This document shows positions 21,653 through 25,568 of a stretch of DNA of 64,000 bases, piece after piece. Source of the stretch: Bacteroidales bacterium. Lineage in GTDB: Bacteria > Bacteroidota > Bacteroidia > Bacteroidales > VadinHA17. The notes under the pieces are model-generated. The model had not been told where the DNA came from. It worked only from the letters and a program-made list of their open reading frames with translations, and searched no databases. Positions within the stretch are counted from its first letter, which is position 1. Each line of letters opens with the position of its first letter. The stretch is from contig JAXLTT010000018.1 in assembly GCA_046329875.1 (NCBI GenBank), positions 933-64,932 on the forward strand, read 5' to 3'. The translations under genes and the position numbers were made by a program.

Positions 21653-23545
21653 ATGTCAGGGAAAATTAATCCATTAAAGGCGTTCCTTATGGCCGGGCTG
21701 ATGGTTTTAGCCTTAGCGTCATCCAGGGCACAGACAGGTTTCGATAATCCTACAAGGGCTCTTTATATTTTCGACCTTGCGAAGTATGTCGATTTCGGAC
21801 CGGGCTTCGCCGACTCTTCATCTTTTAAAGTCGGTATGCTGGTTGGAGATTACGACCTCATAAATGAAATGGCAAAGCTTGCGAGAACCCGTACACGCAT
21901 CCAGGATAAACCTGTTTCCGTTGTAGGATTCAGAAATCTTGACAATATGACGCATGTCCAGGTCCTTTATGTGAACAAGGAGGCTGGCTTTAACCTTGCA
22001 AAAGTCAAGGCTAAGATTGCAGGGCAGCATACAATGCTTATTACGGAAGGATATGAATTCCGTGAAGCAATGATGAACTTCATAGTTGTAAATGGCAAGC
22101 CCAGGTTTGATGTGAATGAAGATTACCTGAAGCAGGAAGGACTGTCAGTTCCCCAGACACTTCTATTTACAGCGGTTAAAACCAAGGAGGACTGGCAGAA
22201 TCTTTTCGATATAGCAAGCAAGGAAATTGAAGTCCAGAAAGAGACAATCAGACAGCAGCTCGAAACCATAGAGGTGCAGAAACAGGAGATTCTTAAACAA
22301 AAGGCACTGCTCGACAGCCTCGACAGGCAGATTGCAGAAAAGGAAAAAGCTCTCGGTGAAAAACAAAAGGTACTTAATTACCAGGTTGCCCAGATCTCTA
22401 AACAGCGCGGTGAGATAACAATACAGAAACAGACAATAGAATCGCAGCAGAAAGCTGTACAGGTACAGCAGGACACGCTGGCTGCACAGAAATCCAAGAT
22501 CGATTTGCAGCTTGCAATGATCGGCGACCAGCTAAAGAAGATAGGGGAACAGGAAGGGAAAATAAAGATCCAGCTGGCGACTCTCGAGAAGCAGAAGATC
22601 ATAATCTATTTTGTCATTTTCGCCCTTGTCCTTGCAAGCTTCCTCGCATACTATATCTACAGGGGATACAGGATCAAGAAAGAAGCAAACATAAAGCTCG
22701 AGGAGAAGAACCGTACTATTTCAGCCCAGAAGGATGAAATTGAAAAACAAAGGGATATTGCGGCAGCACAACGCGACCAAATAGCCTACCAGAAAAAGCA
22801 TATCGAGGATTCGATAATGTATGCCAAAAGGATACAAACAGCACTTATACCTTCCCTTGAGCTCTTCGACGACAAGCTCGAGCATTTCGTCCTGTATAAA
22901 CCACTTGCAATTGTAAGCGGTGACTTTTACTGGGTGACATCAAAGAATAATTACCAGGTGATCATTGCTGCCGACTGTACGGGTCATGGCGTTCCCGGGG
23001 CATTCATGAGCATGCTTGGCGTGTCAATGCTTAACGAGATTGTTAACGAAAAGGATATTGTGATGCCAGACCAGATTGCTGAAAGCCTCCGGCAGGGTGT
23101 CATTAAATCACTAAAACAGGTTCTTGATGAGGACACCGTGAAGGATGGAATGGACATAGCCGTCTGCACAATAGATTTCTCTAAAAACCTTCTGTACTAC
23201 GCCGGCGGTAACAACCCGCTGTATCTTGTAAGGGGAGGCGAGCTCACCCATTACAGGCCCGACAAGATGCCGGTTGCAATTCACTATAAGATGCAGCCTT
23301 TCACCCTCAATACAATTGAACTGCAGAAAGGCGATGCATTCTATGTATTCTCAGATGGATACTGCGACCAGTTCGGAGGCCCTAATGAGAAGAAATTCAT
23401 GACTGCCAAACTGAAGGACACACTCGTTCAGATAGCCGGAATGCCAATGATAGAGCAGGGTAAAATGCTCGACAAGGTATTTGAAGACTGGAGAGGAAAG
23501 AATCCCCAGGTAGATGATGTGACCCTTATTGGTGTAAGGTATTAG
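21653..23545 (+). CDS. YfiR/DUF4154-like periplasmic domain, coiled coil, TM helix and PP2C/SpoIIE phosphatase
   Basis: Signal peptide; long Q/K/E-rich coiled coil; TM helix IIIYFVIFALVLASFLAYYIY. PP2C motifs SGDFYWV, ADCTGHGVPGAFMS and SDGYCDQFGG. Confidence 0.8.
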   Translation: MSGKINPLKAFLMAGLMVLALASSRAQTGFDNPTRALYIFDLAKYVDFGPGFADSSSFKVGMLVGDYDLINEMAKLARTRTRIQDKPVSVVGFRNLDNMTHVQVLYVNKEAGFNLAKVKAKIAGQHTMLITEGYEFREAMMNFIVVNGKPRFDVNEDYLKQEGLSVPQTLLFTAVKTKEDWQNLFDIASKEIEVQKETIRQQLETIEVQKQEILKQKALLDSLDRQIAEKEKALGEKQKVLNYQVAQISKQRGEITIQKQTIESQQKAVQVQQDTLAAQKSKIDLQLAMIGDQLKKIGEQEGKIKIQLATLEKQKIIIYFVIFALVLASFLAYYIYRGYRIKKEANIKLEEKNRTISAQKDEIEKQRDIAAAQRDQIAYQKKHIEDSIMYAKRIQTALIPSLELFDDKLEHFVLYKPLAIVSGDFYWVTSKNNYQVIIAADCTGHGVPGAFMSMLGVSMLNEIVNEKDIVMPDQIAESLRQGVIKSLKQVLDEDTVKDGMDIAVCTIDFSKNLLYYAGGNNPLYLVRGGELTHYRPDKMPVAIHYKMQPFTLNTIELQKGDAFYVFSDGYCDQFGGPNEKKFMTAKLKDTLVQIAGMPMIEQGKMLDKVFEDWRGKNPQVDDVTLIGVRY

Positions 23546-23769
23546 TTACACTCAACTTTCGTTGTAACTGACCCTACTGTTACGTCAGGTATTGCCTCCT
23601 GTTTTACAAGGTCAGTACCGCAATATTCAGCAGCGCCGGTCTCGCTTACGTATGACCCGTTATCATAGGTGACATATTTGCAGGTCTTGCAGTTCTGAAG
23701 AAGGCTGCAGGCGTTAAACGATACAGCGAAGATCACAAAGGCGGCAGCAATAATGAGTTTCTTTTTCAT
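23542..23769 (-). CDS. small Cys-rich lipoprotein
   Basis: MKKKLIIAAAFVIFAVSFNAC lipobox, 75 aa. The listed 172-aa ORF is an upstream extension through the GC-rich repeats. Confidence 0.6.
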   Translation of the reverse strand: MKKKLIIAAAFVIFAVSFNACSLLQNCKTCKYVTYDNGSYVSETGAAEYCGTDLVKQEAIPDVTVGSVTTKVECN

Positions 23770-23900
23770 ACGGGTTATATTACATTGCAAATATAATAAT
23801 TCTATTAATTCGTTCCCTGGCATATTACAGACACAACATTTATTCAGAAGGTTGCATCGGACCTTTTTCACCATTTGAATCGAATTTATCTCATTGATTT

Positions 23901-24022
23901 CAGCCCCCTCCAGGGGGCGGCCCCGGTTCACCGGGGCGGGGGTCGTTGAATCAACTGGCCAGAATTCTTGTAATGTTCTCAGCCCCCTCCAGGGGGCGGC
24001 CCCGGTCCACCGGGGCGGGGGT
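23901..24022 (+). repeat. two copies (79-bp spacing) of a 43-bp GC-rich double-hairpin element
   Basis: CAGCCCCCTCCAGGGGGCGGCCCCGGTTCACCGGGGCGGGGGT at 23901-23943 and 23980-24022. Hairpins are GCCCCCT/AGGGGGC and GCCCCGG/CCGGGGC. Confidence 0.9.
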
Positions 24023-24090
24023 TGGTGAATTGGTACCGTAAACAATTTCTCTACATGCATTTTGCACCCCTGCCATTCGCCTTGCTCATG

Positions 24091-24114
24091 GCTGCCCCCT
24101 GGAGGGGGCTGAGA
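24091..24114 (-). repeat. inverted partial copy (hairpin 1 only) of the GC-rich element
   Basis: GCTGCCCCCTGGAGGGGGCTGAGA is nearly the reverse complement of 24535-24558. Confidence 0.85.
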
Positions 24115-24166
24115 ATGAAGAATAAAGAAAGATTTGTAATTTTGATATGAGCTGCACTTCGAAGTA

Positions 24167-24586
24167 ATGAAAACCGGAAATATGTTTTTTGGTGCCAGTG
24201 CTCAAATATTTGAGACTGCAAATTATTTAAGGAACCATATGACTCATGCAGAACTTGTACTATGGTCCAGGCTTAAAAATCGAAACATTATCAATCAAAA
24301 GTTCAGAAGACAACATCCAATTGGCAACTACATCGTGGATTTTTATTGTCATAAACTTAAGCTGATTATCGAAGTCGATGGAGAAATCCATCATGATGAA
24401 TTGCAAAGAAAATATGATCTTAAACGATCCTCTGAGCTTAATAATCTCGGTCTGATAATTATGAGATTTAATAATAACGAAATCCTGTATAATCTTAGCG
24501 AAGTTGTAAAACAGATTCAACTTAAAATTAAAGATCTCAGCCCCCTCCAGGGGGCGGCCCCGGTTCACCGGGGCGGGGGTCGATAA
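24167..24586 (+). CDS. DUF559 (Vsr-like) endonuclease domain protein
   Basis: LRNHMTHAELVLWSRLKNR...KFRRQHPIGNYIVDFYC...LIIEVDGEIH pattern. The last 16 or so codons and the stop are supplied by the GC-rich repeat. Confidence 0.8.
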   Translation: MKTGNMFFGASAQIFETANYLRNHMTHAELVLWSRLKNRNIINQKFRRQHPIGNYIVDFYCHKLKLIIEVDGEIHHDELQRKYDLKRSSELNNLGLIIMRFNNNEILYNLSEVVKQIQLKIKDLSPLQGAAPVHRGGGR

Positions 24587-24892
24587 AGCACTGCCCAAAA
24601 TTAATACATGGACTTCAGCCCCCTACAGGGGGCGGCCCCGGTCCACCGGGTCGGGGGTCGATAAAGCACTGCCCAAAATTAATACATGGACCTCAGCCCC
24701 CTCCAGGGGGCGGCCCCGGTTCTCCAGGGCGGGGGTCGATAAAGCACTGCCCAAAATTAATACATGGACTTCAGCCCCCTACAGGGGGCGGCCCCGGTTC
24801 ACCGGGGCAGGGGTCGATAAAGCACTGCCCAAAATTAATACATAGACTTCAGCCCCCTCCAGGGGGCGGCCCCGGTTCACCGGGGCGGGGGT
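24538..24892 (+). repeat. 78-bp tandem repeat array (5 hairpin cores, 4 identical AT-rich linkers)
   Basis: Cores start at 24538, 24616, 24694, 24772 and 24850. The linker is CGATAAAGCACTGCCCAAAATTAATACATGGAC, and the cores carry point differences. Confidence 0.95.
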
Positions 24893-25019
24893 CATAAATC
24901 CTGTTAATTATGTAAAATCCCATATATTTACTAAATTTCTTTCCCGTGATGCAGCACTGCAATAAAAAGGCAGTCATTTGGTCAGGAATGAAAAAATAGA
25001 AACATAAAAATTAAACGTC

Positions 25020-25397
25020 ATGGAAGAGTCATTAAGAATGAAAAATCACGTTAAGACCGTGGCAATAATTCAGATTATAAGGAGCTCACTCTGGATCCTG
25101 GCTTCAGCAGCCTTAATCATTGTCTTCGGCTTCTTGCTGGGTACAGTGAACGATCCCACAGCAGAAACTGTCTTCAGGATTCTGATCATAACATTGCCTG
25201 GTTTCTTCGGACTATTTTCAATTCTTGGCCTTGTTAGCGGGATCGGATTGCTTTCGCATAAGAATTGGGCGAGAATTATTACAATTATAACAACAGGGAT
25301 GGGTTGTCTTAGTATACCAATAGGAACTCTTGTTGGAGTTTATTCAATATGGGTTCTGATGCAGGATGAAACCATTAAACTCTTCAACAATCAATAA
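25020..25397 (+). CDS. hypothetical 4-TM membrane protein
   Basis: 125 aa, hydrophobic, followed by a clear terminator. Confidence 0.6.
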   Translation: MEESLRMKNHVKTVAIIQIIRSSLWILASAALIIVFGFLLGTVNDPTAETVFRILIITLPGFFGLFSILGLVSGIGLLSHKNWARIITIITTGMGCLSIPIGTLVGVYSIWVLMQDETIKLFNNQ

Positions 25398-25418
25398 TCA
25401 GATTTTAGTTTTAATTTT

Positions 25419-25451
25419 GAAGGTGTCTCAAAAGGACACCTTCTTTGTTTT
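25419..25451 (+). terminator. rho-independent terminator
   Basis: GAAGGTGTC-tcaaaag-GACACCTTC followed by TTTGTTTT. Confidence 0.75.
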
Positions 25452-25456
25452 AAATA

Positions 25457-25568
25457 ATGAACTCATCCCCCGTCCCCTTCTCTCCGCCTGCTGGCGGAAA
25501 GAAGGGGTGAGTCGAAAAGCTTAAAAGCCGCTCTTTGCAACGCAGAGAGGGGTATGGGGTGAGTTCAT
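25457..25568. repeat. 112-bp palindromic intergenic element
   Basis: 13-bp terminal inverted repeat ATGAACTCATCCCC / GGGGTGAGTTCAT. Internal hairpin CCCCTTCTCTCCGCCtgctGGCGGAAAGAAGGGG. Confidence 0.7.

What the first reader, a model, noticed from the sequence alone, without database searches (positions are those of the whole stretch)
23901..24892. DUF559 endonuclease ORF bracketed by inverted GC-rich hairpins and followed by a 78-bp tandem array of the same element
A 43-bp double hairpin (GCCCCCT/AGGGGGC plus GCCCCGG/CCGGGGC) occurs 7 times in direct orientation. The cores start at 23901, 23980, 24538, 24616, 24694, 24772 and 24850.

It also occurs once as an inverted half-copy (24091-24114), just upstream of the DUF559 ORF (24167-24586). 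The ORF is thus flanked by 24-bp inverted repeats that match at 22/24 positions:
- GCTGCCCCCTGGAGGGGGCTGAGA.
- ATCTCAGCCCCCTCCAGGGGGCGGC.

The ORF takes its last 16 or so codons and its stop from the repeat.

The alternative pairing CCCCC...GGGGG across the whole core suggests a switchable structure.

Inference: this may be a selfish unit of roughly 470 bp in which a Vsr-fold nuclease is associated with a REP-like hairpin family, loosely analogous to REP/RAYT pairs. As far as I know, that has not been formally described for DUF559.
Basis: partly seen in the sequence, partly recalled or inferred. Interest (0 to 1): 0.65.

Follow-up and report, generated by a model that had tools for sequence, protein, structure and literature searches.

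The report
Nuclease gene framed by triplex repeats
A small endonuclease gene (DUF559/YcjD family) sits between inverted copies of a GC-rich repeat that is a variant of the known "intrastrand triplex" DNA motif (E. coli BoxC/TM). The same gene-repeat pairing recurs from Bacteroidota to E. coli K-12, which suggests these long-orphan repeats have a partner nuclease.

Summary
There are seven direct copies and one inverted copy of a 43-bp GC-rich element, a 78-bp tandem array, and a DUF559 ORF whose last 15 codons come from the repeat.

The element is not a new REP-like hairpin and not a Watson-Crick switch. Its grammar is: pyrimidine arm, loop, purine arm, linker, then a mirror copy of the purine arm. 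That is the published intrastrand triplex motif (TM/PIT/BoxC; Holder 2015). Here the second loop is replaced by a variable hairpin.

The link to DUF559 appears to be new:
- In 68 small-DUF559 loci from many phyla, TMs are 19-fold denser around the gene than in its flanks.
- 66% of DUF559 genes have a TM at the stop, against 10% of other genes (p 3e-22).
- Polarity is fixed: inverted copy upstream, forward copy downstream.
- E. coli ycjD, the Neisseria protein family of PDB 3HRL, and cyanobacterial plasmid copies show the same pairing.

Strains of the window's species carry the same site with two TMs and no DUF559. Sister species carry an ORF-less TM pair.

This particular 43-bp family is confined to one locus, and TMs persist in E. 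coli lineages without ycjD.

Best reading: a co-inherited, probably selfish, nuclease-plus-triplex-repeat cassette. That the nuclease acts on the repeats is inferred, not shown.

The parts
23901..23943 (+). Triplex-motif (TM) copy U1: pyrimidine arm CCCCCT, loop, purine arm AGGGGG, bridging hairpin GGCCCCGG-TTCA-CCGGGGC, mirror tail GGGGGT
23980..24022 (+). TM copy U2, 79 bp after U1. Its spacer is related to the downstream array spacers.
24066..24114 (-). Inverted TM forming the left end of the DUF559 cassette. Read on the minus strand it is hairpin 1, a different bridging hairpin (GCCAT..ATGGC) and the tail GGGGT. 24090-24114 is the 25-nt inverted-repeat arm.
24115..24166 (+). 52-nt leader between the left TM and the ATG. 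It contains TTTG...TAATTTTG, which resembles the Bacteroidetes TTTG / TAnnTTTG promoter consensus. This is inference from prior knowledge and was not tested.
   Evidence: sequence only
24167..24586 (+). DUF559 (YcjD-family, Vsr-fold) endonuclease ORF of 139 aa. The domain spans residues 16-121. Residues 124-139 are encoded by the TM and are predicted disordered.
24538..24580 (+). Forward TM forming the right end of the cassette, overlapping the ORF 3' end. In most homologues loop 1 (TTTAG/TTTAA) supplies the stop. Here the loop is TCCA, so translation runs on to a TAA in the spacer.
24537..24898 (+). Tandem array with a 78-bp period and 4.7 copies. Each unit is a TM (at 24538, 24616, 24694, 24772, 24850) plus a 35-bp spacer.
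25452..25566 (.). A second ORF-less TM pair of a different sequence family: an inverted copy, then a degenerate forward copy of the CCCCTTCTC/GAGAAGGGG + GGGGTGAG type. It is not part of the finding's coordinates but belongs to the same motif class.

Best explanation
The region is a cluster of intrastrand triplex motifs (TM, also called PIT or BoxC) with a compact DUF559/YcjD-family endonuclease cassette embedded in it.

The motif. Each TM puts three elements on one strand:
- a C-rich arm;
- its Watson-Crick G-rich partner;
- after a linker, a mirror copy of the G-rich arm that can lie in the major groove (G*G.C and T*A.T triplets).
Here the linker is a stable, sequence-variable hairpin.

The cassette. 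It runs: inverted TM, about 50-nt leader, DUF559 ORF, forward TM, with the mirror tails pointing outward. It is inherited as a unit.

Proposed behaviour (inferred). The cassette acts as a selfish element. The Vsr-fold nuclease nicks or cuts at or beside TMs when they are extruded from single-stranded DNA during replication, repair or transcription. The resulting breaks are repaired by copying or recombination between TMs. That would:
- convert ORF-less TM pairs into full cassettes;
- delete cassettes back to solo or paired TMs;
- expand tandem arrays.

Shown: the motif grammar, the gene-repeat association and its polarity, the strain polymorphism, the ORF-less derivatives, the arrays, and an intact active site.

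Inferred: that the protein acts on the TM, and the repair-based copying.
For: Motif identity
- The tail is a mirror of the purine arm: in 104 informative hairpins, 66 match at 90% or better as a mirror against 18 as a direct repeat (p 9e-11).
- The pattern matches the published TM_ECO pattern CCCTCNCCC-N3-6-GGGNGAGGG-N3-GGGNGAGGG.
- Ten unrelated linker sequences all fold into 5-9-bp stems.

Association with DUF559
- 55 of 68 small-DUF559 loci have a TM within -300/+150 of the gene. Density is 2.47/kb there against 0.128/kb in the flanks; shuffles gave 0 and 4.
- A TM lies at the stop in 43/65 DUF559 genes against 38/397 other genes (OR 18, p 3e-22). At the start the figures are 41/65 against 42/397 (p 3e-19).
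- Polarity is inverted-upstream / forward-downstream in 13 of 15 single-orientation loci (p 9e-7).
- Homologues only about 50% identical still end '...PL*', with the stop inside TM loop 1.

Independent cases
- E. coli K-12 ycjD: the stop lies in a degenerate TM and a perfect TM_ECO lies 170 bp downstream.
- The N. gonorrhoeae locus encoding a member of the DUF559 family solved as PDB 3HRL, and two cyanobacterial plasmid copies.
- An independent survey lists DUF559 genes as 14-fold enriched among genes overlapped by inverted repeats.

Unit behaviour
- Same-species contigs L082 and L084 (flank protein 99% identical) have two TMs and no DUF559 at this site.
- The difference is confined to the TM-bounded interval.
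- An abundant strain in run X5 lacks the cassette.
- Sister species L085 and L087 carry an inverted TM, 47 bp, then a forward TM. Their inner ends resemble the DUF559 cassette ends of L003 and L030.
- L004 has five ORF-less units and one full unit in tandem.
- Related genomes have the gene in different gaps of the dnaG-ileS neighbourhood.
- The closest DUF559 relative among 5.8 billion proteins is 59% identical, while the flanking protein has relatives at 99% and 83%.

Enzyme
- D58, E69, D71 and H75 are invariant.
- The closest folds are 3HRL and then the homing endonuclease I-Bth0305I.
Against: - No biochemical activity is known for any small DUF559 protein.
- Holder et al. saw the triplex only in single-stranded DNA in vitro, not in duplex DNA or by in vivo DMS footprinting. 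They found most E. coli TMs at the same loci in 56 strains, so these are not visibly mobile.
- E. coli genomes without ycjD still hold 2-23 matches to the ycjD-plus-TM query, mostly TM-like.
- This 43-bp family is single-locus in its host.
- No target-site duplications were seen.
- Identical DUF559 proteins were always found in the same gene context.
- Homologues are rare on plasmids (45 of 72,556) and phages (3 of 50,697).
- The window/L082 difference can be produced by simple recombination between direct TMs, with no nuclease involved.
- 13 of 68 DUF559 loci have no TM by my strict grammar.
Confidence: 0.45

Rival explanations
1. Passenger in a fragile site. TMs are recombination and instability hotspots, and small accessory genes such as DUF559 simply accumulate or survive next to them. 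The nuclease has an unrelated job, such as repair or restriction, and does not touch the repeats.
For: - TMs are linked to local genomic variability in E. coli.
- TMs also occur after ordinary genes, at 0.13/kb in the flanks.
- TMs persist without ycjD.
- This locus is variable in several ways, including a divergent patch in the next gene.
Against: - Random capture does not predict a fixed polarity (13 of 15).
- It does not predict a stop codon placed in the TM in homologues only 50% identical and in four phyla.
- It does not predict a constant unit length of about 0.5 kb.
- It does not predict ORF-less units that keep both cassette ends.
- Other genes in the same loci have TMs at only about 10%.
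Confidence: 0.25
2. Expression element. The flanking TMs act on the DUF559 transcript or its transcription. For example, the 5' and 3' copies could pair into a long stem that insulates, processes (RNase III-like, as in rRNA intervening sequences) or stabilises the mRNA of a potentially toxic nuclease. Built-in stop codons would block read-through translation.
For: - The inverted copies are complementary over 25 nt or more, and up to 70 nt in L005.
- TM loops carry TAA/TAG in both orientations.
- Both hairpins are stable.
Against: - A plain RNA hairpin or panhandle does not need a mirror-repeat tail with A-to-T changes.
- From prior knowledge, purine-motif triplexes are a DNA property and are poorly formed by RNA.
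- PIT/TM motifs showed no promoter or terminator activity in earlier tests, as cited.
- None of the TMs scores as an intrinsic terminator.
- Rfam has no matching family.
- Solo TMs and arrays far from any DUF559 gene are left unexplained.
Confidence: 0.15
3. Invertible switch. The inverted repeats mediate programmed inversion of the DUF559 segment.
For: A systematic screen lists 'DUF559 domain-containing protein' as 14-fold enriched among predicted programmed-inversion targets. 25-nt inverted repeats are present.
Against: - No recombinase gene lies in or next to the unit.
- No strand-switch joints appeared in four metagenome assemblies.
- Inversion of a whole gene together with its leader would change nothing obvious.
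- The enrichment is explained by the TM flanks themselves.
Confidence: 0.05
4. Stand-alone defence or restriction-type nuclease whose neighbourhood repeats are coincidental.
For: There are weak matches to methyl-directed restriction enzyme models: PADLOC mREase_II at 1.7e-6 and Pfam PvuRts1I-like N-terminal domain at 0.0046. PvuRts1I and AbaSI appear among the fold hits.
Against: - Both matches are far below family thresholds and cover only the shared nuclease core.
- There is no partner methylase, no SRA-like reader domain and no defence-island context.
- Coincidence is excluded by the statistics.
Confidence: 0.05

Closest known systems
Intrastrand triplex motif TM_ECO / PIT motif / E. coli BoxC (Hoyne and Maher 2000; Holder et al. 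2015, PMC4666352)
   Same: - Same three-block grammar on one strand: C-rich arm, loop, G-rich arm, short linker, mirror G-rich arm with some A-to-T changes.
- Intergenic location.
- Occurs solo, as inverted pairs and in clusters.
- Associated with local rearrangement.
   Different: - The window's arms are only 6 nt (CCCCCT/AGGGGG/GGGGGT) rather than 9.
- The sequence is not the TM_ECO consensus.
- Loop 2 is a 19-23-nt stable hairpin instead of 3 nt. The ITxF search, which allowed loops of 1-6 nt, could not have found it.
- The published work reports no associated gene.
REP / REPIN sequences and their RAYT (TnpA_REP) transposases
   Same: - A single nuclease gene is flanked by inverted copies of a short GC-rich structured repeat.
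- The same repeat class also exists without the gene, as singlets, inverted doublets and clusters.
   Different: - The protein is a PD-(D/E)XK/Vsr-fold nuclease, not an HUH Y1 transposase.
- The DNA element is a triplex-type motif, not a GTAG-marked palindrome.
- This 43-bp family is confined to one locus rather than hundreds of sites.
I-Bth0305I, a Vsr-like (EDxHD) homing endonuclease of a phage group I intron (PDB 3R3P)
   Same: - It is the closest characterised fold after 3HRL: TM-score 0.78-0.81 on the target, probability 1.0.
- It is also a selfish nuclease gene whose presence or absence is polymorphic at a conserved site.
   Different: - There is no intron or intein here.
- There is no long N-terminal DNA-binding region.
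- Sequence identity is about 25%.
- The target, if any, would be a repeated structured motif rather than a unique gene sequence.
MITEs and their parent insertion sequences
   Same: - Terminal inverted repeats.
- Short ORF-less derivatives that keep both ends (L085, L087, and the units in L004).
   Different: - No DDE or other transposase.
- No target-site duplications seen.
- Derivatives lie at the same locus or in tandem rather than dispersed.
Vsr very-short-patch repair endonuclease (PDB 1CW0, 1VSR)
   Same: Same fold superfamily and same catalytic acidic/His arrangement.
   Different: - The similarity is weak (Foldseek E 0.1).
- No dcm partner gene is adjacent.
- DUF559 has its own N-terminal helices and no demonstrated T/G mismatch activity.

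Membership tests
DUF559 (Pfam PF04480; YcjD family) | Profile match above the curated threshold | tested here: met
   119.2 bits against a cut-off of 20.6; E 9.8e-35; profile positions 5-108 of 109.
DUF559 (Pfam PF04480; YcjD family) | Conserved acidic/His catalytic core of the Vsr-like PD-(D/E)XK clan | tested here: met
   D58, E69, D71, G72 and H75 are invariant in 42 homologues. The model superposes on 3HRL (TMt 0.89) and on 3R3P.
DUF559 (Pfam PF04480; YcjD family) | NCBIfam equivalog PRK09767 (E. coli YcjD) | tested here: not met
   78 bits against a cut-off of 218. It is the same family but not an equivalog of YcjD.
Intrastrand triplex motif (class II purine motif; TM/PIT/BoxC) | C-rich arm and G-rich arm that are Watson-Crick complementary across a loop of 3-6 nt | tested here: met
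   CCCCCT/AGGGGG. Counting the T-A pair the stem is 6 bp and the loop is 2 nt (CC); counting only CCCCC/GGGGG the loop is 4 nt (TCCA). All 8 copies were found and shuffles gave about 0.1.
Intrastrand triplex motif (class II purine motif; TM/PIT/BoxC) | Third block that mirrors the G-rich arm (G*G.C, A*A.T or T*A.T triplets) | tested here: met
   GGGGGT is the mirror of AGGGGG with A changed to T. This is uninformative on its own for a G5 arm. It is shown by covariation in relatives with mixed arms: mirror better in 65, direct better in 5, p 9e-11.
Intrastrand triplex motif (class II purine motif; TM/PIT/BoxC) | Short second loop (3 nt in TM_ECO; 1-6 nt in the ITxF definition) and a stem of 8 or more for confident calls | tested here: not met
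   The linker is a 19-23-nt hairpin and the stem is 6 nt. This makes it a structural variant rather than a canonical TM_ECO.
Intrastrand triplex motif (class II purine motif; TM/PIT/BoxC) | Forms a triplex physically | not testable with these tools
   This is shown only for TM_ECO single strands in vitro (PMC4666352). ViennaRNA does not model triplexes.
REP/RAYT system | HUH Y1 transposase (RAYT) as the associated protein | tested here: not met
   The protein is DUF559 with a Vsr fold.
REP/RAYT system | Repeat dispersed in many copies around the genome | tested here: not met
   All contigs with the 43-bp core in four whole metagenomes have flanks that belong to this locus. There were no true hits in JGI metagenomes. 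The wider TM class is dispersed in other genomes.
REP/RAYT system | Nuclease gene flanked by inverted copies of the repeat | tested here: met
Insertion sequence / MITE | Transposase, terminal inverted repeats and target-site duplication | tested here: not met
   Inverted ends are present. There is no transposase domain. No direct repeats flank the unit in the window, L085 or L087.
CRISPR array | Identical repeats separated by unique spacers | tested here: not met
   The 35-bp 'spacers' are copies of each other (93% array identity). The Rfam CRISPR-DR10 match is 15 bits against a threshold of 39.
Intrinsic terminator | GC-rich hairpin followed by a T-run | tested here: not met
   No TM is called as a terminator. 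The only calls are at 25317 and 25419.

The most novel reading that the evidence does not exclude
Small YcjD-type DUF559 proteins are the cognate, structure-specific endonucleases of the intrastrand-triplex repeats (BoxC/PIT/TM) found in hundreds of bacterial genomes. Together they would form a REP/RAYT-like selfish system built on a Vsr-fold nuclease and triplex-forming DNA. That would explain both the origin of these repeats and the genome instability seen around them.
Probability: 0.3. Interest if true: 0.85.

Novelty: new variant of a known kind. Interest (0 to 1): 0.68.

Why it matters
BoxC/PIT/TM repeats have been catalogued since the 1990s. There are 23 in E. coli K-12, thousands in proteobacteria, and hundreds per genome in some cyanobacteria. 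The 2015 study found no function, no origin and no partner protein, and stated that no mobility gene lies near them.

DUF559 is a large uncharacterised nuclease family with a member in E. coli K-12 (ycjD) and a solved structure (3HRL).

If the two belong together, two orphan problems become one testable problem in a model organism:
- Does YcjD bind or cut BoxC DNA?
- Does it drive the rearrangements seen at TM loci?

It would also be a rare natural case of a protein tied to triplex-forming DNA.

On the practical side, the hairpin-bridged TM variant shows that existing triplex searches, which allow only short loops, miss part of the family.

Tried and rejected
1. Structured RNA family. Rfam at E up to 10 gave only noise over 23300-25500.
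2. Alternative Watson-Crick switch. Rejected by the mirror-versus-direct test.
3. CRISPR-like array. The spacers are identical.
4. Intrinsic terminators. None called at the TMs.
5. Genome-wide copies of the 43-bp family.
   - The JGI metagenome scan gave 3 chance hits inside GC-rich coding sequence.
   - The read and contig lay-down found only this locus.
6. Unbiased motif-to-gene test in viral contigs. 0 of 80 loci had DUF559. This sample was dominated by a different phenomenon, a minimal TM inside phage replication-initiator genes that encodes 'TPLPPKGG', so it does not test bacterial chromosomes.
7. My recollection that four-helix-bundle and GxxExxY genes share such flanks. The literature search found nothing usable, and I did not test it on sequence.
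8. Identical DUF559 proteins in different contexts as proof of recent transposition. P0063 and P0107 were always in one context each.
9. Correlation of TM number with ycjD in E. coli. This was suggestive only. ycjD-positive rows show 15-33 matches. ycjD-negative rows are bimodal, at 2-5 or 10-23. The comparison is confounded by phylogroup.
10. Carriage on plasmids or phages. Rare.
11. Defence-system membership. Only weak matches to the shared nuclease core.
Full report
**1. The observation**

- The 43-bp core CAGCCCCCTCCAGGGGGCGGCCCCGGTTCACCGGGGCGGGGGT occurs seven times on the plus strand, at the stated coordinates, with 0-3 mismatches. It occurs nowhere else in the 64 kb, and shuffles give zero matches.
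- The first hairpin marks an eighth, inverted site at 24092-24111.
- Tandem Repeats Finder reports a 78-bp unit, 4.7 copies, 93% matches, at 24537-24898.
- The inverted repeat around the ORF is 25 nt at 96% complementarity (24090-24114 against 24535-24559).
- ORF 24167-24586 is a DUF559 protein: PF04480, E 9.8e-35, domain residues 16-121.
- From codon 124 onward the ORF is encoded by the repeat. That tail is disordered in an AlphaFold model that is otherwise confident (mean pLDDT 84; residues 128-139 below 50).

Two refinements:
- The upstream 'half copy' is a complete copy on the minus strand (24066-24108) with a different second hairpin.
- The two upstream direct copies belong to the same array as the downstream ones. 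The segment of about 480 bp made of the inverted copy, the leader and the DUF559 gene therefore lies inside a tandem array, and the ORF reads into the next array unit.

**2. What the repeat is**

Homologues of the ORF are at most 59% identical, yet most of them end '...EL[TSGA]PL' followed by a stop. Their DNA shows why. The gene runs into CCCCCTTTAGGGGG, with the stop codon in the loop, followed by a second G-run.

I collected hairpins around 80 DUF559 loci from species genomes. They follow a strict grammar: pyrimidine arm, loop, purine arm, 2-3-nt linker, then a tail. Where the arm is not just a G-run, the tail is the mirror of the purine arm, often with A replaced by T. Examples:
- CCTTCCCCC-CT-GGGGGAAGG-ttg-GGAAGGGGG
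- CCCCTCTCC-AATT-GGAGAGGGG-cc-GGGGGTGAGG
- a 17-nt arm matched at 16 of 17 positions

In 104 informative cases the mirror fits better in 65 and the direct repeat in 5. The tail matches at 90% or better in 66 cases as a mirror and 18 as a direct repeat (Wilcoxon p 9e-11).

A mirror purine tail that folds back antiparallel to the purine arm is the design of an intramolecular purine-motif triplex. It is not what an alternative Watson-Crick partner would look like, so the proposed 'switch' is not supported.

This motif is published. Holder et al. 2015 (PMC4666352) describe 'intrastrand triplex motifs', with the pattern CCCTCNCCC-N3-6-GGGNGAGGG-N3-GGGNGAGGG. These are equivalent to the PIT motifs of Hoyne and Maher, and the paper relates them to E. 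coli BoxC. Their findings:
- 23 copies in K-12, 3610 in 262 proteobacterial genomes, and many in cyanobacteria.
- The single strand forms a stable triplex in vitro. The duplex does not, and in vivo footprinting was negative.
- No promoter or terminator activity.
- The loci are unusually variable between strains.
- The authors 'never found' mobility functions nearby, and the words DUF559 and endonuclease do not occur in the paper.

The window's element is a variant. It has 6-nt arms, and the second loop is replaced by a stable hairpin. Ten such bridging hairpins (two in the window; others in L002, L003, L060, L061, L085 and L087) share no sequence but all form 5-9-bp stems. That is good covariation evidence that the hairpin is a structural spacer.

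**3. The link to DUF559**

I scanned with the full three-block grammar. In the window it recovers exactly the eight copies, and shuffles give about 0.1.

Across 68 loci with a small DUF559 ORF:
- 55 loci have at least one TM within 300 bp upstream or 150 bp downstream of the gene.
- TM density is 2.47 per kb there and 0.128 per kb in the remaining 600 kb of flanks, a 19-fold difference. Shuffled sequence gave 0 and 4.

Gene by gene:
- 43 of 65 DUF559 genes have a TM at the stop, against 38 of 397 other genes of at least 150 aa in the same loci (odds ratio 18, p 3e-22).
- 41 of 65 have one at the start, against 42 of 397 (p 3e-19).

Other regularities:
- Where each side has a single orientation, 13 of 15 loci have the inverted copy upstream and the forward copy downstream, with the mirror tails pointing outward (p 9e-7).
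- The distance between the outer ends is 442-742 bp, and 515 bp in the window.

Independent cases agree:
- **E. coli K-12 ycjD (DUF559).** It ends ...CACCCTCTCCCTGA, with the stop in the loop of a degenerate TM. A partial duplicate of its own 3' end follows, and a perfect TM_ECO lies 170 bp downstream in front of fabI.
- **N. gonorrhoeae.** A DUF559 gene of the family solved as PDB 3HRL has a TM about 70 nt upstream and an alternating TM array downstream.
- **Cyanobacterial plasmids.** In two copies the stop TAG lies in the CCCCCC-TAG-CCCCCC linker of an inverted TM.
- **An unrelated survey.** It lists 'DUF559 domain-containing protein' as 14-fold enriched among genes overlapped by inverted repeats.

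I found no paper that connects DUF559 with these repeats. The library does not hold every journal, so this is not proof that none exists.

**4. Behaviour as a unit**

*Within the window's species.*
- Contigs from other samples encode a flanking protein 99% identical to the window's. At the same intergenic site they carry only two direct TMs and no DUF559, with the identical right-hand junction (L082, L084).
- The sequence on both sides of the TM-bounded interval is 93-98% identical, so the difference is confined to that interval.
- In one wastewater run a strain at about 60x covers the flanks, while the cassette is at about 3x.

*In two sister species* (flank protein 80-82% identical). The site holds an inverted TM, 47 bp, and a forward TM, each with its own bridging hairpin. 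The inner ends of these short units resemble the inner ends of the DUF559 cassettes in L003 and L030, as expected for internal-deletion derivatives.

*In other genomes.*
- A Prolixibacteraceae genome has five such ORF-less units and one full unit in tandem.
- Two related genomes have the gene in different intergenic gaps of the same dnaG-epimerase-ileS neighbourhood.
- Another genome has two copies, one on each side of cysS.

*In E. coli.* ycjD and its TM occupy the sapF-fabI gap in 3377 of 5426 complete genomes. The other lineages have the eefRABCD operon there, with neither ycjD nor a TM upstream of fabI (PMC12817139).

*Sequence distances.* The nearest DUF559 relative in 5.8 billion proteins is 59% identical, whereas the neighbouring gene has relatives at 99, 83 and 82%. 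That fits a gene that is not inherited with its surroundings, or one that evolves very fast.

**5. Limits**

- The 43-bp family is not dispersed. In four whole sludge or wastewater assemblies, every contig with the core has flanks from this locus. A scan of JGI metagenomes found only chance matches.
- E. coli genomes without ycjD still show 2-5 matches (B2-like rows) or 10-23 matches (for example O157:H7 with 15) to the ycjD-plus-TM query, most of them TM-like. Holder et al. found most TMs at fixed loci. TMs therefore do not need a resident DUF559 to persist.
- I saw no target-site duplications.
- Identical proteins were always in one context.
- The family is rare on plasmids and phages.
- The window/L082 difference could arise by recombination between direct TMs alone.

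**6. The protein**

The model matches 3HRL (TM-score 0.89 on the target). Next come the catalytic domain of the homing endonuclease I-Bth0305I (0.78-0.81), then PvuRts1I/AbaSI, and Vsr weakly. The acidic and histidine residues are invariant among 42 homologues, so the enzyme is probably active. Matches to defence and phage libraries are weak and cover only the nuclease core.

**7. Most likely mechanism**

*Shown:* a co-inherited cassette with the order inverted TM, leader, DUF559, forward TM; its ORF-less derivatives; arrays; and presence/absence polymorphism.

*Inferred:*
- The nuclease recognises or cuts TMs when they fold out of single-stranded DNA.
- Break repair between TMs then copies, deletes or amplifies units.
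- This would make the pair a selfish system that resembles REP/RAYT in layout and a homing endonuclease in enzyme type.

I put this at about 0.45. The rivals are a passenger gene in a fragile site (0.25), an RNA or expression element (0.15), an invertible switch (0.05) and an unrelated defence nuclease (0.05).

**8. Verdict**

The repeat class is already known. The hairpin-bridged variant and, above all, the systematic DUF559-TM pairing appear to be new, and they can be tested directly in E. coli K-12.

Noticed in passing
window 25452-25566: A second ORF-less TM pair of a different sequence family: an inverted copy ACTCATCCCC-CGT-CCCCTTCTCTCCGCC-TGCT-GGCGGAAAGAAGGGG, then a degenerate forward copy ending GAGAGGGG-TA-TGGGGTGAG. 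It lies between a canonical terminator (25419-25443) and the ABC-F gene. It is identical in the same-species contig L082 and absent in the sister species L085 and L087.
   Followed up: partly
window 25072-25370: The middle of the DUF2127-like membrane-protein ORF (25020-25397) is only 55-80% identical to the same-species contig L082, while both sides are 93-100% identical. This is a sharply bounded hypervariable patch next to the TM cluster.
   Followed up: no
viral loci L088-L167 (e.g. L092 1838-2638, L128 5593-6408): A minimal TM (CCCCCTTTAGGGGG-nnn-GGGGGT) lies inside phage replication-initiator-like genes with DUF1376-like or other N-termini. Its reverse strand encodes 'TPLPPKGG' in a low-complexity linker. 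None of the 80 loci has DUF559. It may be an origin-type element inside the initiator gene, as with lambda ori in gene O.
   Followed up: partly
L230 (E. coli K-12 NC_000913.3 1351190-1351770): Downstream of ycjD there is a partial duplicate of the gene's last ~60 nt together with a decayed TM, before the intact BoxC/TM_ECO. In ST69 and ST182 the ycjD 3' end carries a 12-nt insertion (PMC12817139). The TM-embedded gene end is therefore a variable spot in E. coli too.
   Followed up: partly
L001 3405-3590; L004 5130-6610; L233 1990-2584: Tandem arrays next to DUF559 genes recur in other genomes with unrelated unit sequences and periods: about 39 bp in L001, about 180 bp in L004, and about 280 bp with alternating TM orientation in N. 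gonorrhoeae.
   Followed up: partly
general: TMs carry stop codons in both orientations. Loop 2 (TTA or CTA) reads TAA or TAG on the other strand, and the Bacteroidota loop 1 (TTTAG or TTTAA) holds a stop on the forward strand. An ORF that runs into a TM from either side is therefore terminated. The window's loop 1 (TCCA) lacks a stop, which explains the 13 extra residues after the usual '...PL' end.
   Followed up: partly
L220 209-550 and 2501-2896: In one Bacteroidota genome two DUF559 genes flank cysS within 2.5 kb, amid housekeeping genes (ispG, cysS, a PLP-dependent Cys/Met-metabolism enzyme gene (PF01053), homoserine dehydrogenase).
   Followed up: no
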